A DNA stretch of 5,418 nucleotides from a virus (IMGVR_UViG_3300022775_000041), one strand, 5' to 3'; shown: positions 1 to 5,418, counted from the stretch's first letter. The notes: generated by a model not told the origin, from the sequence alone. Numbers and translations are program-made.

Positions 1-113
1 GCTTTCAGTGGATTTTGGATAACAGAAAGGCCGGGAAATACCCAGCCTCGCTTTGTAACGGAGTAGACGAAAGTGATCGCGCCTACCCGGATATTATCGT
101 GAGGATGCGTCAT
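1..113 (-). CDS. Possible 5' part of an unknown ORF downstream of exo, running off the window edge
   Basis: ATG at 113-111 overlaps the exo stop TGA (112-110) in an ATGA arrangement. The frame stays open to position 1 ([37 protein letters not shown]...). No homology recognised and only 37 codons are visible. Confidence 0.2.
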
Positions 114-790
114 CGCCATTGCTCCCCAAATACAAAACCAATTTCAGCCAGTGCCTCGTCCATTTTTTCGATGAACTCCGGCACCATCTCGTCAAAACTC
201 GCCATGTACTTTTCATCCCGCTCAACCACGACATAATGCAGCCTTCACGCTTCATACGCGGGTCATAGTTGGCAAAGTACCAGGCATCTTTTCGCGTCAC
301 CCACATGCTGTACTGCACCTGGGCCATGTAAGCCGACTTTATGGCCTCGAAACCACCGAGCCGGAACTTCATGAAATCCCGGGAGGTAAACGGGCATTTC
401 AGCTCAAGGCCATTGCCGTCACTGCATAAACCATCGGGAGAGCAGGCGGTGCGCATACTTTCGTCGCGATAGATGATCGGGGATTCAGTAACATTCACGC
501 CGGAAGTGAATTTCAAACAGAGTTCTGGCGTCGTTCTCGTACTGTTTTCCCCAGGCCAGTGCTTTAGCGTTAACTTCCGGAGCCACACCGGTGCAAACCT
601 CGGCAAGCAGGGTGTGGAAGTAGGACATTTTCATGTCAGGCCACTTTTTTCCGGAGCGGGGTTTTGCTATCACATTGTGAACTTCTGAAGCGGTGATGAC
701 GCCGAGCCGTAATTTGTGCCACGCATCATCCCCCTGCTCGATAGCTCTCACGTCGATCCCGGTACGCTGCAGGATAATGTCCGGTGTCAT
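110..790 (-). pseudogene. exo: Lambda-type exonuclease (Red-alpha, Exo); reading frame broken twice as sequenced
   Basis: Three consecutive minus-strand frames together reproduce lambda Exo as I recall it: ORF 485..790 ([16 protein letters not shown]...[10 protein letters not shown]), the middle of ORF 94..606 ([27 protein letters not shown]...YDPRMKREG), and a third frame from about 244 to the TGA at 112-110 ([43 protein letters not shown]). Frame changes are at the TTT run 521-523 (lambda has GAATTC, here gaatttc on plus) and at about 241 (plus cagcc where lambda has CAGGCC). Total length of 681 nt equals the 226-codon lambda exo. The start ATG 790-788 overlaps the bet stop. Confidence 0.85.
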
Positions 791-1571
791 GCTGCCACCT
801 TCTGTTCAGTGGCTTTTTGTTTCAGGAATCCAAGAGCTTTCACTGCTTCGTCCTGTGTCAGTTCTGACGATGAACGAATGTCGCGGCGAAATATCTGGGA
901 ACAGAGCGGCAATAAGTCGTCATCCCATGTTTTATCCAGGGCGATCAGCAGAGTGTTAATCTCCTGCATGGTTTCATCGTTAACCGGAGTGATGTCGCGT
1001 TCCGGCTGACGTTCCGCAGTGTATGCGGTATTTTCGACAATGCGCTCGGCTTCATCCTTGTCATAGATACCAGCAAATCCGAAGGACAGACGGGCACACT
1101 GAATCATGGCTTTATGCCGTAACATCCGTTTGGGATGCGACTGCCACGGTCCGGTGATTTCTCTGCCTTCGCGGGTTTTGAATGGTTCGCGGCGGCATTC
1201 ATCCATCCACTCGGTAACGCAGATCGGATGATTGCGGTCTTTGCGGTAAATCCGGCATGTGCAGGATTCGTTGTCCTGTTCAAAGTCCATGCCATCAAAC
1301 TGCTGGTTTTCGTTGATGATGCGGGACCAGCCATCAACGCCCACCACCGGAACGATGCCGTTCTGCTTATCAGGGAAGGCGTAAATTTCTTTCGTCCACG
1401 GATTAAGGCCGTACTGGTTGGCGACGATCAGCAATGCGATGAACTGCGCATCGCTGGCATCGCCTTTAAATGCTGTCTGGCGAAGAGTGGTGATCAGTTC
1501 CTGTGGGTCGACAGAATCCATGCCGACACGTTCAGCCAGCTTCCCAGCAGCGTTGCGAGTGCTGTACTCAT
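787..1571 (-). CDS. bet: Lambda-type Red-beta single-strand annealing protein (Bet); frame disrupted near codon 9 as sequenced
   Basis: ORF 787..1845 contains [51 protein letters not shown]... through ...[15 protein letters not shown], matching lambda Bet from memory. The lambda-type start ATG at 1571-1569 (MSTALATL) has GAGG about 10 nt upstream but is one nucleotide out of frame with the body. Plus 1540-1550 reads cttcccagcag where lambda has CTTCCCAGCCAG, so one C is missing at about 1548. The 352-aa ORF in the track is an artefactual upstream extension. An in-frame ATG at 1521 would give an N-terminally shortened product. Confidence 0.85.
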
Positions 1572-1576
1572 CCGTT

Positions 1577-1873
1577 TTATACCTCTGAATCAATATCAAC
1601 ATGGTGGTGAGCAATGGTTTCAACCATGTACCGGATGTGTTCTGCCATGCGCTCCTGAAACTCAACATCGTCATCAAACGCACGGGTAATGGCTTTTTTG
1701 TTGGCCCCGCAGCGTTGCAAATGATCGATGCAGAGTGATTCAAACAAATGCTGGGGCAGACCTTTTTCCAGGTCGTCTGCCAGTTCTGCCTCTTTCTCTT
1801 CACGGGCGATCTGCTGGTAGTGACGCGCCCAGCTCTGAGCCTCAAGACGATCCTGAATGTAATAAGCGTTCAT
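1577..1873 (-). CDS. gam: Gam, host RecBCD nuclease inhibitor (short GamS-type form)
   Basis: The 98-aa [101 protein letters not shown] matches lambda Gam from memory. ATG 1873-1871 is preceded by AGGAG (plus 1881-1885, 7 nt spacer). Stop TAA is at 1579-1577, 5 nt before the bet ATG. Confidence 0.9.
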
Positions 1874-1948
1874 GGCTGAACTCCTGAAAATGGCTGTGAA
1901 AATATCGCCTGCGAAATGCCGGGCTGATTAGGTAAACAGGAAAGGGGA

Positions 1949-2239
1949 TTAGTGATTCAGGCCGTTACCGCGTCCGTCGAGAAAAACTTCCACGAGCAAA
2001 TCACGGGTATAAGTGCGCTCGATGCCGCGATGCAGATAAAGCCGTCCGCGTAAATTAGCTGATGCAGTCCAGGTACCATCTTTGTGTTTGACCAGCATTC
2101 CTGGCATGACCGCACCGCGATTAACGGTCTGCGTTCCGTAATGTTGATGAACCATAAAAACTCCTGCCCGTAAGCTGGGCTGCTGAACATATAGAGACTT
2201 CTGCGCGTATTCAGGCGGTGGATGGCCGCCGGTTGTCAT
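1949..2239 (-). CDS. Hypothetical protein (96 aa from ATG), the only ORF between the pL-like region and gam
   Basis: Open frame 1949..2359 in the ORF track. The first ATG at 2239-2237 has GAGG about 10 nt upstream, giving [96 protein letters not shown]. No family recognised. It occupies the slot where lambda has N, ral, ea10, cIII and kil. Confidence 0.45.
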
Positions 2240-2432
2240 AACTAAGCCGCCTCGTTGAAGCGACTGAGGTATGAGGTGTTGAGTTGATTTCAGCTGGTCA
2301 CACCGACGTTCACGCGTCCGCTTCACCCCTCGCACTCCCCGGAGCCTGCTGAAATTCAAGCTGCGGATCTAAGCGGTCATCGCAACGGTGAATCAGGTGA
2401 TTGCCGTATCGTTGTGTTGTTGCGATGAACTT

Positions 2433-2461
2433 ATTTAAAACTATAGTTGTTTTACCGTCAA
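2433..2461 (-). promoter_or_regulatory. Candidate leftward (pL-like) sigma70 promoter
   Basis: On the minus strand: -35 TTGACG (2461-2456), 17-nt spacer, -10 TTAAAT (2438-2433). It lies in the AT-rich non-coding region just downstream of the cassette terminator and upstream of the leftward early genes. Confidence 0.3.
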
Positions 2462-2510
2462 CAACAAAAGTTGTTTTATTGGTTGTTTTAGATATAACTG
2501 GTTGTATTTA
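2446..2510. repeat. Direct repeats GTTGTTTTA x3 plus one variant GTTGTATTTA
   Basis: Plus-strand copies at 2446-2454, 2470-2478 and 2482-2490, with the variant at 2501-2510. They overlap the pL-like promoter candidate. An inverted repeat AACAAC-aaaa-GTTGTT (2460-2475) sits among them. Confidence 0.5.
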
Positions 2511-2534
2511 GGATGGATTTATTTTGTGACTTGA

Positions 2535-2547
2535 ATCGCATAGCGAT
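2535..2547. promoter_or_regulatory. Palindrome ATCGC-ATA-GCGAT, candidate operator-like site
   Basis: Inverted 5-bp arms ATCGC/GCGAT around ATA. It shares the CGC-N(2-3)-GCG core with the oR palindrome ATACGC-TT-GCGTAT at 5064-5077. Confidence 0.25.
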
Positions 2548-2598
2548 AACTGAAGCGAGGTTATGGTGGTTTTTTGAGCGGTTTGTGTGATGAGGGGA

Positions 2599-2630
2599 GG
2601 CAAAAGAAAACCCGGCACGGTGGCCGGGTT
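2599..2630 (-). terminator. Rho-independent terminator ending the cI-kinase-DUF3037 transcription unit
   Basis: Perfect 8-bp stem AACCCGGC (2609-2616) / GCCGGGTT (2623-2630) with a 6-nt loop. On the minus-strand transcript it is followed by UUUUCUUUUG (rc of plus 2599-2608). It lies 14 nt downstream of the last cassette stop codon (2647-2645). The plus-strand orientation has no U tract. Confidence 0.65.
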
Positions 2631-2644
2631 ATTAATAAGGAATA

Positions 2645-3034
2645 TCACATACAAAAATAAATTTTAAACTTGGGGAAGTATTTTTTTGCAAAATCAATAG
2701 TTTCTTTGTGGTTGGATGCAGGTATATGATTTATTTTCTTAGCATCCATAGTTCTCTTTATGATGTCAATAACTTTGCTTTGGCCTGAGTTTGGTGATTC
2801 AGGAGTTTCAATTGTGAATAAAATGTCATCAAGTGAAAGCAGGTTTTCTTCTGCTGCTCGAGTTATTCTCATCACCCAAGTATCACTATGCTCCATCATT
2901 TTTCCTGGTTCAGCTTGAGTGAATGCCAGAGGTTTGATGGCACATTGGATCCTGTCATGCTTCTTGGCGACCAATGGCATTGAGAACTTTGCGAAATACC
3001 CATCAATGGTTGCTTGTTTGAAGACGTTCTTCAA
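2645..3034 (-). CDS. Hypothetical protein, probably the C-terminal continuation of the DUF3037-like gene after a frame break
   Basis: ORF-track ORF starting at TTG 3034. The frame is actually open from 3061 (NEVSIELDGLKNVFKQATIDGYFAKFSMPLVAKKHDRIQ...KIYFCM). The first ATG (2980) has no convincing SD. Stop at 2647-2645 is followed by the terminator. It overlaps the end of ORF 3003..3491 by about 30-60 nt in a different frame. Confidence 0.4.
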   Translation of the reverse strand: MKNVFKQATIDGYFAKFSMPLVAKKHDRIQCAIKPLAFTQAEPGKMMEHSDTWVMRITRAAEENLLSLDDILFTIETPESPNSGQSKVIDIIKRTMDAKKINHIPASNHKETIDFAKKYFPKFKIYFCM

Positions 3035-3491
3035 TCCATCTAATTCTATCGATACTTCGTTTTAGCTCTCTGGCTAGAACATCTTCACGGCGCTCTTTTG
3101 TGTAGTCAGAGTGGTTTACATATTTATTGTAAATGCGGGCCAGCTCTTCTTTTGGGTTTTCGCTGAGAATCACTCTCGTAGAACTGAACTGAAAAATTGA
3201 TTCTTTTTTGTTTGTAAAATATCTGAAGAATTGTGCAAGTTGTTGATGTCCAACAATCTGGGTCGCATGCATTTTTGCGAACTGTAGTTCTCTTTGTATT
3301 GAGTCTTTTGCTACAGGGAAAATACAATCATCATGGAAAAAATTCTTTACACGAGAGTCATTTCGCTTTGTGAGCTGGAAATCAAAGTAATTTTCTTTTG
3401 GCGCGCACAGAAGTACGCCTATGTTTGCGAACTCTTCAGTCTCCGCATAAGGCGCATAGCGAACGATGCTATATAGGCATGGAGTTGTCAT
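3003..3491 (-). CDS. DUF3037-like hypothetical protein, partner of the HipA-like kinase (possibly truncated by a frame break at about 3003-3061)
   Basis: ATG at 3491-3489 overlaps the kinase stop TGA (3490-3488) as ATGA. GGAG lies about 11 nt upstream. The N-terminus MTTPCLYSIVRYAPYAETEEFANIGVLLCAP resembles, from memory, the DUF3037 N-terminal signature (Y-x-V-x-R-x-x-P...E-x-x-N-I/V-G-V-L-L). The ORF track start at 3506 is TTG. Confidence 0.55.
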   Translation of the reverse strand: MTTPCLYSIVRYAPYAETEEFANIGVLLCAPKENYFDFQLTKRNDSRVKNFFHDDCIFPVAKDSIQRELQFAKMHATQIVGHQQLAQFFRYFTNKKESIFQFSSTRVILSENPKEELARIYNKYVNHSDYTKERREDVLARELKRSIDRIRWIEERLQTSNH

Positions 3492-4237
3492 TCTATTGCG
3501 CTCCAAAATTCATCACAATCACCTTTGTCTAGCGTAGTGCAGACAAAAGGTAAAAACTCCTCATCTACTATCCACTCTTCTGGAATTTCGTCAAGGATAG
3601 CAGGAAGCTTGTGTAAACTGTTAACGACCCTCTGGCGGTACTCTACGCGATCCACTAAATCATATTGCCATTTGCGGTTACCAGGGCCGTACACGTGCAC
3701 AGAAAAATCTTCAGGTCCAGCATTCTGATCAAATGAGAGATTATGGTCAATCAGATAATACTTATCGTTACTGATGTCATAAAGGATGTTAACGTTTCCA
3801 CCTTTGTCAGTAAGCGTTCTGTCTGCATTTAATATCCATTTATCAAAAACATAGATTAATTTTTGCTGTTCGACTGGGATGATCGTTTCGTTTCTTGACT
3901 GCGTAAACGTTAACGCTATTGCACCGTCAATGAACAATGAAGCAAAGGCATATCCTGTACAAATTTGTTGCTGCAGATCAGGTGAGTACTCTATAAGTTC
4001 CTCTGGCACAAATACGATTTTAAAGTCAGGTAAAGGAAGGCCGATATCATTAGCCAAACACGCCGAAATGAACTCAGCTAAGAGATTTTTCGGGGGCATT
4101 GATGGTTTTGACTTCAAAACATACAACTGCCCATCATCACATTTGCAAAGAAATGGCTGAGTGGAACCTTCATTGATGCGACGTATTACCTCAACGACAT
4201 TAGGTATTGCACTATTGCTGCTCGCTACGCACTCCAT
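3488..4237 (-). CDS. HipA-like (protein-kinase-like fold) putative Ser/Thr kinase, stand-alone catalytic core of about 249 aa
   Basis: ATG at 4237-4235 (the track's M at 4240 is GTG) with AAGGG about 7 nt upstream. The C-terminal half carries WILNADRTLTDKGGNVNILYDISNDKYYLIDHNLSFD, which by eye parallels the HipA catalytic region (...IGNTDDHLKNFSLLYDE...LSPAYDL, recalled from memory): catalytic-loop Asp and Asn plus a downstream metal-binding Asp. An upstream LYVLKSKP may hold the ATP-binding Lys. Confidence 0.55.
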   Translation of the reverse strand: MECVASSNSAIPNVVEVIRRINEGSTQPFLCKCDDGQLYVLKSKPSMPPKNLLAEFISACLANDIGLPLPDFKIVFVPEELIEYSPDLQQQICTGYAFASLFIDGAIALTFTQSRNETIIPVEQQKLIYVFDKWILNADRTLTDKGGNVNILYDISNDKYYLIDHNLSFDQNAGPEDFSVHVYGPGNRKWQYDLVDRVEYRQRVVNSLHKLPAILDEIPEEWIVDEEFLPFVCTTLDKGDCDEFWSAIE

Positions 4238-4359
4238 CACTAACCCTTATGTGATTCAAGTCTTCCATCTCATTACTCCGCATCTCAAAGAGCGGTTTAA
4301 CACTGCGTGTTTAAAGAAAAACAACAGGCCTATTGCTGTAACTGTTTTTTAGCCTCACT

Positions 4360-5051
4360 TTAACCATGCTTCCTATATGTCTGCGGCATGCTCCCAATAA
4401 CCTTACCGAAGATGAACACCCGGTTCATCTCGTCTTTCTCGATCGGGTCCCACGGTGAGTAGCTTTTGTTATCAGAGATGACCAGCAGCTTATCCTTCAT
4501 CATTTGCAGGCGCTTTACATGGGCTGTGTCGTCGTACAGAAACGCATAGATACCATCACCGTCGAAAGATTTAACTGTGATATCAACGAACAGCAGATCA
4601 CCTGGTTCGATCGTTCCTGACATGCTGTCACCGCGACGTTAATGATGCGGATATTTTCTGCCTTCCTACCATCGAACATGTGACGAGCATCGTCAAACGA
4701 GTACTCAACCGAGCGTAGAACTTCTACAAACTCACGGTTGATGACTCCCGGCCCGGCACTCACTTCTATATCAAGAACGTCAATCTTGAAGTATTTGGGA
4801 TGGTTGGCAGTAGGCTTCCCTAATTGTTGACCGTCATTTCTCATCGGGCCTATGCCTGATGAGAGCCACTCTGTTCGAACACCCAATGCATTAGCTATTT
4901 CAACAATTTTTGTTGAGCCGCGCGCGTTGCCGCTTGTCAGTCTCCAGATTGTGGGTTGAGCTACGCCAGACGCCTTTGCAAGAGCGCCTTGAGACATTCC
5001 AGATTGTTCCATCGCTAGGTTTAAGCGATCAGCAAGAGTTTCTTTTTTCAT
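4360..5051 (-). pseudogene. cI: cI-type prophage repressor (N-terminal HTH plus C-terminal S24 LexA-like autopeptidase domain); one nucleotide missing between the two domains as sequenced
   Basis: N-terminal frame (ORF 4515..5087) from ATG 5051: MKKETLADRLNLAMEQSGMSQGALAKASGVAQPTIWRLTSGN... with a putative Ala-Gly cleavage site in DIEVSAGPGV. C-terminal frame (ORF 4360..4623): MSGTIEPGDLLFVD...AHVKRLQ...VFIFGKVIG (S24 Ser and Lys motifs). Restoring one nucleotide near 4633-4638 (plus caccgcgacg, inferred caccgcggacg) yields IINVRGDSMSGTIEPGD, a canonical V-x-G-D-S-M motif. The track's TTG start at 5087 lies inside the operator region. Confidence 0.8.
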
Positions 5052-5060
5052 AAGTTTTAA

Positions 5061-5087
5061 TTTATACGCTTGCGTATTGATGGTCAA
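5061..5087 (-). promoter_or_regulatory. Candidate pRM-like promoter for cI (near-leaderless)
   Basis: On the minus strand: -35 TTGACC (5087-5082), 15-nt spacer (suboptimal), -10 TATAAA (5066-5061), ending 9 nt before the cI ATG at 5051. There is no SD before the ATG, consistent with leaderless cI mRNA as in lambda pRM. Confidence 0.3.
5064..5077. promoter_or_regulatory. Operator-like palindrome ATACGC-TT-GCGTAT (OR3-like position within the pRM candidate)
   Basis: Perfect 6-bp inverted arms. It lies between the -35 and -10 of the pRM candidate. Confidence 0.4.
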
Positions 5088-5098
5088 AACACGTTTTG
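5085..5098. promoter_or_regulatory. Palindrome CAAAAC-AC-GTTTTG in the cI-cro intergenic region
   Basis: 6-bp inverted arms, overlapping the pRM -35 candidate. The sequence differs from the ATACGC-type sites, so it may bind a different factor or be coincidental. Confidence 0.25.
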
Positions 5099-5101
5099 CT
5101 A

Positions 5102-5130
5102 TTGTTATGATTAATACGCATTGCTATTAT
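5102..5130 (+). promoter_or_regulatory. Candidate pR-like promoter for cro
   Basis: -35 TTGTTA (5102-5107), 17-nt spacer, -10 TATTAT (5125-5130), about 30 nt upstream of the cro ATG. The spacer and -10 overlap the degenerate operator copy ATACGCATTGCTAT (5114-5127). Confidence 0.35.
5114..5127. promoter_or_regulatory. Degenerate operator copy ATACGCATTGCTAT (OR1-like position within the pR candidate)
   Basis: Shares the ATACGC half-site and the TAT end with the 5064-5077 palindrome. The two sites are 50 bp apart centre to centre. Confidence 0.3.
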
Positions 5131-5161
5131 TTATTCATTGTAATACCAATAGGAATTAATA

Positions 5162-5389
5162 ATGACAAATCAAACCATTCAACTCGCAATCAGTATTACA
5201 GGTAGTCAAAAACGACTGGCAGATCTATGCGGTGTAGCCCAGCCCACTGTTTGGCGTTGGCTACACGGTGGCGGAATTGATGCCCGCTATGTAATGAAAA
5301 TTGTCTCAGCCACTGGTGGAAAGATTAAACCAGCAGATATTCGTCCCGACCTCGCACCATTGTTTAACGCGAGTAATTCTGCCGCCTAA
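5162..5389 (+). CDS. cro: Cro-like HTH transcriptional regulator (Cro/YdaS-type), divergent from cI
   Basis: ATG 5162 with AGGA at 5151-5154. The 75-aa product MTNQTIQLAISITGSQKRLADLCGVAQPTVWRWLHGGGIDARYVMKIVSATGGKIKPADIRPDLAPLF... has a small Cro-like layout and shares the GVAQPT(I/V)WR helix with cI. Stop TAA at 5387-5389. Confidence 0.7.
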   Translation: MTNQTIQLAISITGSQKRLADLCGVAQPTVWRWLHGGGIDARYVMKIVSATGGKIKPADIRPDLAPLFNASNSAA

Positions 5390-5418
5390 TCTGCGGCGTT
5401 AACTGATAAGGCAATGAC

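What the first reader, a model, noticed from the sequence alone, without database searches (positions are those of the whole stretch)
110..5051. Four single-nucleotide homopolymer indels break exo (twice), bet and cI while the encoded proteins stay otherwise intact
Relative to protein sequences I recognise with high confidence there is an extra T in the TTT run at 521-523 (exo), a missing G at about 241 (exo; the two compensate so exo keeps the 681-nt lambda length), a missing C at about 1548 (bet codon 9), and one missing nucleotide at about 4633-4638 (cI, between the Ala-Gly site and the catalytic Ser). Each segment still encodes the expected residues in its own frame, so the lesions are either very recent or artefacts. 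That is roughly one indel per 500-600 bp, all in 2-3-nt homopolymers, which is typical of long-read or pyrosequencing error. If real, the lysogen would lack Red recombination and would make a cI truncated before its S24 peptidase domain, meaning a DNA-binding domain with no RecA-stimulated autocleavage, which would have consequences for inducibility.
Basis: partly seen in the sequence, partly recalled or inferred. Interest (0 to 1): 0.55.

Follow-up and report, generated by a model that had tools for sequence, protein, structure and literature searches.

The report
Consensus-error frameshifts in lambdoid prophage

Summary
The window is the early-left and immunity region of a lambdoid E. coli prophage: exo, bet, gam, kil, pL/oL, hipD-hipA (in lambda's rexAB position), cI, oR, cro.

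- **Observation.** Alignment to relatives confirms the four reported 1-nt indels. One is placed 10 nt off: the TTT run is 511-513, not 521-523. There are two more indels, both in the DUF3037 gene hipD (T8->T7 at 2681-2687; A->AA at 3042-3043).
- **Rarity.** None of the six occurs in any of the 284-3293 complete E. coli genomes that carry the matching segment, and the patterns tested were absent from IMG/VR, JGI metagenomes and GTDB representatives.
- **Repair.** Correcting six bases restores full-length exo, bet, hipD and cI.
- **Substitutions.** The window has no private substitutions. It is an exact patchwork of two known prophage haplotypes, one like FDAARGOS_1372 and one like LF82/SE15. 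Differences from other alleles are strongly synonymous.
- **Operator mismatch.** The pL operators belong to one immunity type, and cI N-terminus/oR/cro to the other. No relative shows this combination.

Verdict: consensus or assembly artefact, probably from two merged ~97%-identical prophage copies. Not a real feature; low interest.

The parts
1..113 (-). 3' part of the orf60a/DUF1317 gene (runs off the window)
   Evidence: Position matches the annotated DUF1317 CDS in L001 and L003.
110..790 (-). exo (lambda exonuclease, YqaJ family). Broken twice as given; 226 aa after repair.
   Evidence: Pfam PF09588 on the L001 orthologue. From its native start the window product stops after 101 aa. Repair gives 226 aa.
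240..241 (.). Indel 1: one base missing. Relatives read GCAG[G/T]CC; the window reads GCAGCC.
   Evidence: None of 2656 E. coli genomes matching 201-281 has it; the best hits differ only by this gap. Absent from IMG/VR.
511..514 (.). Indel 2: one extra base. The window reads GAATTTCAAAC, against GAATTCAAAC (L009) and GAATTTAAAC (L026), so both alleles of a T/C SNP appear side by side.
   Evidence: None of 3293 genomes matching 472-552 has it. Absent from IMG/VR.
787..1571 (-). bet (RecT-family annealase). Frameshifted at codon 9; 261 aa after repair.
   Evidence: Pfam PF03837 on the L001 orthologue. The window product stops after 25 aa. Repair gives 261 aa.
1547..1549 (.). Indel 3: one base missing. 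The C/T polymorphic base of CCCAGC[C/T]AGCG is dropped.
   Evidence: None of 3176 genomes matching 1508-1588 has it. Absent from IMG/VR. Five metagenome contigs with the same gam allele carry the base.
1577..1873 (-). gam, intact, 98 aa
   Evidence: Pfam PF06064, E=2e-62. The exact protein is encoded on 5 metagenome contigs.
1949..2239 (-). kil (cell-division inhibitor), intact
   Evidence: Annotated as Kil or cell-division inhibitor in L001, L002 and L009. A 96-aa ORF is present.
2400..2520 (-). pL/oL region with 'B-type' operator repeats AAC(T/A)A(T/A)AGTTGTTTTA at 2439-2454 and 2463-2478
   Evidence: the repeat finder family D2. The same motif lies at oL and beside the cI start in PhiR5_1 (L002) and L009. 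This region is 100% identical to L009.
2609..2630 (-). Terminator-like hairpin after hipD, the end of the cI-hipA-hipD transcript
   Evidence: Terminator scan.
2664..3491 (-). hipD (DUF3037 protein of the HipAD defence pair). Broken twice as given; 275 aa after repair.
   Evidence: Pfam PF11236 and PADLOC PDC-M66B on the L001 orthologue. The window product stops after 162 aa. There are 0 substitutions against L001, L003 and L009.
2681..2687 (.). It changes only the last few codons of hipD.
   Evidence: Among 19 other loci only L021 also has T7. None of 284 complete genomes has it.
3042..3043 (.).
   Evidence: Absent from 284 complete genomes, GTDB representatives, JGI metagenomes and IMG/VR. 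The wild-type pattern is found in 15 IMG/VR contigs.
3488..4237 (-). hipA-family kinase (HipA_2), intact, 249 aa
   Evidence: Pfam PF20613, E=1e-76, and PADLOC PDC-M66A.
4360..5051 (-). cI-like repressor (HTH plus S24 peptidase). Frameshifted after residue 139; 230 aa after repair.
   Evidence: Pfam PF00717 and PF01381 on the L001 orthologue. The window product is 178 aa, the last 39 out of frame. Ala99-Gly100, Ser143 and Lys180 are present in the repaired protein.
4635..4636 (.). Indel 6: one base missing. The lone C/T of CCGCG[T/C]ACG is dropped, 3 nt from the switch between the two parental haplotypes (4610-4633).
   Evidence: None of 2114 genomes matching 4596-4675 has it. Absent from IMG/VR, GTDB representatives and JGI metagenomes.
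5063..5128 (.). oR with 'A-type' operators (ATACGCTTGCGTAT at 5064-5077; similar sites at 5088-5103 and 5113-5128)
   Evidence: The same sites occur in L001, L003, L010, L012, L020 and L022.
5162..5389 (+). cro-like HTH gene, intact, 75 aa
   Evidence: Pfam PF15943. 4760-5418 is 100% identical to LF82, SE15 and many other genomes.

Best explanation
The six single-base indels are errors in the sequence record, not mutations in the organism. The locus is a normal lambdoid prophage early-left and immunity region whose genes would all be intact.

The record appears to be a consensus built from two co-assembled lambdoid prophage copies about 97% identical. One copy resembles the FDAARGOS_1372 / PhiR5_1 prophage (B-type immunity, hipAD). 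The other resembles the LF82/SE15 prophage (A-type immunity).

The consensus switches between the two copies. At four sites where they, or alleles in the panel, differ, the base was either dropped (241, 1548, 4636) or written twice (511-514). The two hipD indels lie in sequence that only one copy has, and are ordinary indel-type read errors.

Shown: the indels, their uniqueness, the two-haplotype mosaic and the operator/repressor mismatch. Inferred: the merging mechanism, whether a collapsed repeat, a strain mixture or a reference-guided consensus.
For: 1. **Private indels.** None of 2656, 3293, 3176 and 2114 complete E. coli genomes matching 80-nt probes around the exo, exo, bet and cI indels is identical to the probe. 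The best hits differ only by the one-base gap. None of 284 genomes shares either hipD indel. The indel-bearing patterns tested are absent from IMG/VR, and those for the cI and 3042 sites also from GTDB species representatives and JGI metagenomes. The wild-type pattern is found.
2. **No private substitutions.** 2401-4632 equals L009 and 4610-5418 equals L026 apart from three indels. In 1-2400, at all 80 sites where L009 and L026 differ, the window carries one allele or the other. The only sites unlike both are the three indels.
3. **Outlier among relatives.** Among 24 related loci the window is the outlier, with 5 private 1-nt indels in genes. Most have none; those of L002, L004 and L010 lie outside genes, in a run of N or in divergent stretches.
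4. **Purifying selection.** exo has 18 synonymous and 6 non-synonymous differences, bet 22 and 3, so dN/dS is about 0.04-0.09. hipD has 0 substitutions but 2 indels.
5. **Indels on polymorphic sites.** Chance is about 1e-4 for these four, or 8e-4 for at least 4 of 6.
6. **Operator mismatch.** oL is B-type but the cI N-terminus, oR and cro are A-type. All 18 loci in which both regions could be typed are concordant. No complete genome matches the whole window above 97.2%.
7. **Repair works.** Six single-base repairs restore all ORFs at reference lengths.
Against: - No reads, quality values or flanking chromosome are available, so error was not observed directly.
- The source record was not found in any collection.
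- Lambdoid phages are naturally mosaic with largely biallelic SNPs. A two-parent fit is therefore partly expected; other panel members fit a best pair with 5-23 leftover sites.
- The window's gam allele is a genuine natural haplotype.
- A natural haplotype (L025) equals the window over 110-553 apart from one SNP at 451 and the two exo indels. Against it, both indels are plain run-length changes. This weakens the SNP-coincidence argument, which is also post hoc.
- A real recombinant between two resident prophages would be viable, because both repressors would remain in the cell.
Confidence: 0.85

Rival explanations
1. These are genuine, very recent frameshift mutations. The prophage is real, possibly a true recombinant of two resident lambdoid prophages, and has just started to decay. 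It has lost Red recombination, HipD and the C-terminal domain of its repressor.
For: Prophage genes do decay by frameshifts. The T8->T7 change is a plausible slippage event and recurs in one other locus, L021. All six indels lie in genes that are dispensable for a host carrying a second repressor. A hybrid made by inter-prophage recombination would be viable in a polylysogen (inference).
Against: - Six indels against zero private substitutions. From my recollection of E. coli mutation-accumulation studies, not checked here, spontaneous mutation gives roughly one indel per ten substitutions.
- Five of the six are not in long runs, and eight other runs of 6 or more are untouched, unlike a mismatch-repair mutator spectrum.
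- None is shared with any of thousands of genomes.
- Four sit on polymorphic sites, which real mutation does not predict.
- The toxic genes kil and gam are untouched while harmless ones are hit.
- From general knowledge of lambda repressor, a cI without its C-terminal domain should fail to hold the prophage.
Confidence: 0.08
2. These are plain platform errors (long-read or pyrosequencing homopolymer miscalls) in a single, genuinely mosaic natural prophage. No second template is involved. This is essentially the first reader's version.
For: T8->T7 is a classic homopolymer miscall. Against the natural haplotype L025, both exo indels are run-length changes, GG->G and TT->TTT. Natural mosaics of the same alleles exist.
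Against: - Only one of nine runs of 6 or more is affected, and two indels are at single bases.
- It does not explain why four indels fall on polymorphic columns (about 1e-4 to 1e-3).
- It does not explain why the operator and repressor types are discordant only here.
Confidence: 0.3
3. Programmed ribosomal frameshifting or another recoding event lets the genes be read through as given.
For: None beyond the fact that the frames resume.
Against: - Every relative has the genes in one frame.
- After each shift a stop follows within 8-39 codons.
- The paired +1/-1 shifts in exo and hipD do not rescue translation, because stops intervene at 485 and 3003.
- The sites were not checked for slippery heptamers.
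Confidence: 0.005

Closest known systems
Prophage of E. coli FDAARGOS_1372 (NZ_CP070063, locus L009) and phage PhiR5_1 (PV340545, L002)
   Same: Same gene order: exo-bet-gam-kil-oL-hipD-hipA-cI. Window 2401-4632 is identical to L009 apart from two indels, and 1-4811 is 99.0% identical. The oL operators are the same B type.
   Different: Their cI N-terminal domain, oR and cro are B-type, whereas the window's are A-type. All their genes are intact.
DLP12-site prophage of E. coli LF82 / SE15 (NC_011993, NC_013654; L026, L027)
   Same: Window 4610-5418 (cI N-terminal part, oR, cro) is identical apart from one missing base. These loci supply all 34 non-L009 alleles in 1-2400, including the rare 1015C.
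   Different: They carry other genes instead of hipAD between oL and cI, and they have A-type oL.
Phage lambda Red/immunity region (exo, bet, gam, kil ... rexAB, cI, cro)
   Same: Same order and orientation. Lambda-derived records are about 97.5% identical over 1-1955. exo has the same 681-nt length.
   Different: No N or cIII ORF lies between pL and kil. hipAD replaces rexAB. The repressor, operators and cro are not lambda's.
Consensus errors at sites where collapsed repeat copies or mixed strains differ (general assembly artefact; from my own knowledge, not checked against a paper here)
   Same: Fine-scale switching between two haplotypes, no new substitutions, and 1-nt gaps or duplications at the variable sites.
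   Different: The pipeline and platform are unknown. Two of the six indels are not at variable sites.

Membership tests
Lambda exonuclease (YqaJ, PF09588) | YqaJ-like recombinase domain in one open frame of about 226 aa | tested here: inconclusive
   The domain is found in the L001 orthologue. In the window as given the frame breaks at codons ~93 and ~184 and the product stops at 101 aa. After two single-base repairs it is 226 aa.
Bet / RecT annealase (PF03837) | RecT domain in one open frame of about 261 aa | tested here: inconclusive
   The domain is found in the L001 orthologue. The window product stops after 25 aa. One repair gives 261 aa.
cI/LexA-like S24 repressor | N-terminal HTH, Ala-Gly cleavage site, and Ser and Lys of the S24 dyad in one chain | tested here: inconclusive
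   HTH_3 and Peptidase_S24 are found in the orthologue. The repaired protein has Ala99-Gly100, Ser143 and Lys180. As given, the chain leaves the frame after residue 139. Self-cleavage itself cannot be tested here.
Genuine prophage pseudogenes | Relaxed selection: non-synonymous changes about as frequent as synonymous ones, with substitutions accompanying the indels | tested here: not met
   dN/dS is about 0.04-0.09 in exo and bet. hipD has 0 substitutions with 2 indels. There are no private substitutions.
Genuine prophage pseudogenes | The lesion is seen in independent records or reads | tested here: not met
   Absent from all complete E. coli genomes carrying the segments, and the patterns tested were absent from the public collections scanned. 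Only T8->T7 recurs, once. Reads cannot be tested here.
Homopolymer-type platform error (454 / Ion Torrent / nanopore) | Indels concentrated in long single-base runs | tested here: not met
   One of six indels is in a long run (T8). Eight other runs of 6 or more are clean. Two indels are at single bases.
Merged-template (collapsed repeat or mixed strain) consensus | The sequence is a mosaic of two haplotypes with no alleles of its own | tested here: met
   All 80 variable sites in 1-2400 carry the L009 or the L026 allele, and the rest of the window is identical to one or the other. Caveat: natural mosaics also fit two parents fairly well, with 5-23 leftover sites.
Merged-template (collapsed repeat or mixed strain) consensus | Errors sit at sites where the templates differ | tested here: met
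   Four of six indels do. The chance estimate is 1.3e-4 for those four and 8e-4 for at least 4 of 6. The test is post hoc.
Merged-template (collapsed repeat or mixed strain) consensus | Mixed alleles and raised coverage in the reads | not testable with these tools
   No reads are available and the source record was not found.
HipAD anti-phage system (HipA_2 kinase + DUF3037) | Adjacent HipA-like kinase and DUF3037 protein genes | tested here: met
   PF20613 and PF11236, and PADLOC PDC-M66A/B. Annotated HipA/HipD in PhiR5_1. Described as DS-6/HipAD in PMC13092281. hipD is frameshifted as given.

The most novel reading that the evidence does not exclude
The sequence is correct as written. It would then be a real hybrid prophage, made by recombination inside the cI C-terminal coding region between two resident lambdoid prophages. 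Its pL operators no longer match its own repressor, and it has taken a burst of six frameshifts with no substitutions. That would imply an indel-only mutational process acting at heteroduplex mismatches during inter-prophage recombination.
Probability: 0.06. Interest if true: 0.4.

Novelty: not a real feature. Interest (0 to 1): 0.08.

Why it matters
Taken at face value, the record would be annotated with four pseudogenes. It would suggest a Red-deficient, HipD-less prophage with a truncated repressor and a repressor/operator mismatch. The evidence says these are products of how the sequence was built.

- **Annotation.** Frameshifts in lambdoid prophage modules that occur several times per genome should be checked against co-resident copies before being called pseudogenes. 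One search found up to 7 copies per genome.
- **Diagnostic.** Single-base gaps or duplications that fall exactly on sites variable between paralogous copies point to merged templates.
- **Biology.** No new biology follows.

Tried and rejected
- **Finding the source record.** I looked for the frameshift-specific products (cI 178 aa, exo 101 aa) in the gene-position index and found nothing. Exact indel-spanning patterns gave no hit in IMG/VR, GTDB representatives or JGI metagenomes. So I could not test whether neighbouring chromosomal genes carry indels at the same rate.
- **Programmed frameshifting.** Rejected, because all relatives are in frame and stops follow each shift.
- **Compensating +1/-1 pairs in exo and hipD.** They do not rescue translation, since stops intervene at 485 and 3003. 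I treat the pairing as coincidence.
- **Toxin-antitoxin argument.** A broken hipD beside an intact hipA kinase might be lethal. I did not use this, because HipD as an antitoxin is only a hypothesis in PMC13092281, and the Brenes & Laub paper is not held.
- **Apparent frameshift in metagenome contig L004.** It looked like a parallel case but is a run of N.
- **Rfam scan of the window.** No match.
- **Fold of the pL leader (2270-2430, minus strand).** I looked for an HK022 put-like RNA. The z-score was -0.59, which is nothing.
- **Dam/Dcm motifs.** By eye I found none at the six sites.

Full report
**What the window is.** ORF listing, BLAST and Pfam identify the early-left and immunity region of a lambdoid E. 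coli prophage.
- On the minus strand lie the end of orf60a/DUF1317 (1-113), exo (110-790), bet (787-1571), gam (1577-1873) and kil (1949-2239).
- A pL/oL region follows at about 2400-2520, with a terminator-like hairpin at 2609-2630.
- Next come a DUF3037 gene (2664-3491), a HipA_2 kinase gene (3488-4237) and a cI-like HTH + S24 repressor gene (4360-5051).
- oR lies at 5063-5128, and a cro-like gene (5162-5389) is on the plus strand.
- The kinase/DUF3037 pair occupies the place of lambda rexAB. It is the HipAD defence pair (PADLOC PDC-M66; DS-6/HipAD in PMC13092281; annotated HipA/HipD in phage PhiR5_1).

**Checking the observation.** I aligned the window with three relatives, then with about 25. 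This confirms single-base indels at 240/241 (missing), 511-513 (extra), 1548 (missing, bet codon 9) and 4635/4636 (missing, after cI residue 139, between Ala99-Gly100 and Ser143).
- Two further window-specific indels were missed, both in hipD: T8->T7 at 2681-2687 and A->AA at 3042-3043.
- As given, exo stops after 101 aa, bet after 25, hipD after 162 and cI after 178.
- Six single-base repairs restore 226, 261, 275 and 230 aa, the lengths seen in all relatives.
- The +1/-1 pairs in exo and hipD keep gene length but do not rescue translation, because stops intervene.
- The homopolymer claim is weak. Run lengths in relatives are 2, 2, 2, 8, 1 and 1. 45% of all bases lie in runs of 2 or more. Eight other runs of 6 or more are unaffected.

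**Are the indels seen anywhere else?** No.
- Probes of 80-81 nt centred on the exo, exo, bet and cI indels matched 2656, 3293, 3176 and 2114 complete E. coli genomes. None was identical, and the best hits differed only by the one-base gap.
- For hipD, the best of 284 genomes was 99.6% identical, which is exactly the two gaps.
- Exact indel-spanning patterns were tested for five of the six sites. All were absent from IMG/VR, and the cI and 3042 patterns were also absent from GTDB species representatives and JGI metagenomes.
- The wild-type pattern was found in 15 IMG/VR contigs.
- Only T8->T7 recurs, in one IMG/VR locus.
- The source record itself could not be found.

**Substitutions tell a different story from the indels.** The best full-length match is only 97.2%, but the divergence is ordinary allelic mosaicism.
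- Differences from relatives are strongly synonymous: exo 18 synonymous and 6 non-synonymous, bet 22 and 3, so dN/dS is about 0.04-0.09.
- hipD has no substitutions at all against three relatives, yet carries two indels.
- Window 2401-4632 is identical to the prophage of strain FDAARGOS_1372 (L009) apart from the two hipD indels.
- Window 4610-5418 is identical to the LF82/SE15 prophage (L026, L027) apart from the cI indel.
- In 1-2400 there are 80 sites where L009 and L026 differ. The window carries the L009 allele at 46 and the L026 allele at 34. The only positions unlike both are the three indels.
- So the whole window has six private indels and no private substitution. Among the 24 comparison loci, most have no private 1-nt indels. 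Those of L002, L004 and L010 lie outside genes, in a run of N or in divergent stretches.
- This ratio is the opposite of what spontaneous mutation or pseudogene decay gives. That expectation rests on my own knowledge of E. coli mutation spectra and was not checked here.

| Site | L009 | L026 | Window | Effect |
|---|---|---|---|---|
| 241 | GCAG-G-CC | GCAG-T-CC | GCAGCC | variable base dropped |
| 511-514 | GAATT-C-AAAC | GAATT-T-AAAC | GAATT-TC-AAAC | both alleles in tandem |
| 1548 | CAGC-C-AGCG | CGGC-T-AGCG | CAGC-AGCG | variable base dropped |
| 4636 | CG-C-ACG | CG-T-ACG | CG-ACG | variable base dropped |

- Exact-match tiling shows that the L026-to-L009 switch lies at 513/514.
- The 4636 deletion lies 3 nt from the switch back to the L026 type.
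- A simulation on the panel alignments puts the chance of these four coincidences at about 1.3e-4, and of at least four in six at about 8e-4.
- The test is post hoc and depends on the choice of panel.
- Against the natural haplotype L025, which equals the window over 110-553 apart from one SNP and the two indels, both exo indels are plain run-length changes. I therefore treat this as supporting evidence, not proof.

**Operator and repressor do not match.** The pL region carries two AAC(T/A)A(T/A)AGTTGTTTTA repeats.
- These repeats are also found at oL and beside the cI start of PhiR5_1 and L009. I call them B type.
- The window's cI N-terminal domain, oR (ATACGCTTGCGTAT and related sites) and cro are of a different, A type.
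- Carriers of the A type have A-like sites at their own oL.
- In all 18 panel loci where both regions could be typed, the two regions agree. Only the window is discordant.
- No complete E. coli genome shows this combination.
- A single crossover in the shared cI C-terminal coding region would make such a hybrid, whether in the cell or in an assembler.

**Interpretation.** The best-supported reading is that the indels are artefacts of the record (confidence about 0.85).
- Within that reading, a consensus built over two co-assembled ~97%-identical prophage copies explains most. The copies could come from a collapsed repeat, a strain mixture or a reference-guided consensus.
- It accounts for the switching between two haplotypes, the absence of private substitutions, gaps or duplications at variable sites, and the discordant immunity arms.
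- E. coli genomes commonly hold several such copies, up to 7 matches per genome.
- The two hipD indels lie in sequence that only one copy has. They look like ordinary indel-type read errors, which suggests indel-prone data underneath.
- The simpler version, platform errors in a single naturally mosaic prophage, remains possible. It does not explain the site coincidence or the operator mismatch.
- Real, very recent frameshifts are unlikely (under 0.1). The reasons are the indel-to-substitution ratio, the lack of long-run bias, the uniqueness of the indels and the site coincidence. In addition, a repressor lacking its C-terminal domain resembles the RecA-cleaved inactive form and should not hold a prophage (general knowledge of lambda repressor).
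- Programmed frameshifting is excluded by comparison with relatives.

**Limits.** I had no reads, quality values or flanks. Natural lambdoid mosaicism makes a two-parent fit partly expected: other loci fit their best pair with 5-23 leftover sites, and the window's gam allele is a genuine natural haplotype. The merging mechanism is inferred.

**Verdict.** This is not a real biological feature and the interest is low.

Noticed in passing
window 2400-2520 versus 4812-5161: The pL/oL operators are of one immunity type (as in PhiR5_1 and L009), while the cI N-terminal domain, oR and cro are of another (as in L001 and LF82). All 18 related loci in which both regions could be typed are concordant. 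The switch lies inside cI at 4610-4633.
   Followed up: yes
window 2664-4237 (minus strand): A HipA_2 kinase plus DUF3037 gene pair sits between oL and cI, where lambda has rexAB. This is the HipAD / PDC-M66 / DS-6 anti-phage system. LF82 and SE15 prophages with the same cI carry other, unannotated gene pairs at this spot, so it is a swappable cargo site.
   Followed up: partly
window 2160-2660: No N-like or cIII-like ORF lies between pL and kil, only about 450 nt without an annotated gene in any relative. Rfam finds nothing. The leader 2270-2430 (minus strand) does not fold better than shuffles (z -0.59).
   Followed up: partly
window 1577-1873: The window's exact Gam protein is encoded on five short metagenome contigs (ENA and JGI). 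That fine-scale allele mosaic therefore exists in nature independently of this record.
   Followed up: partly
L021 (IMGVR_UViG_2537561778_000007), at the site matching window 2681-2687: This locus also has T7 instead of T8 at the 3' end of hipD. It is the only recurrence of any of the six indels, and could be slippage or the same kind of miscall.
   Followed up: no
L004 (ENA ERZ28630652 scaffold_597), at the site matching window ~1222-1232: The bet gene of this metagenome scaffold is called as two ORFs because of a run of N, not because of a true frameshift.
   Followed up: yes
window 5162-5389: The cro-position gene matches Pfam 'YdaS_toxin', and its downstream neighbour in relatives is annotated 'toxin YdaT domain-containing'. 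They sit at the cro and cII positions of these phages.
   Followed up: no
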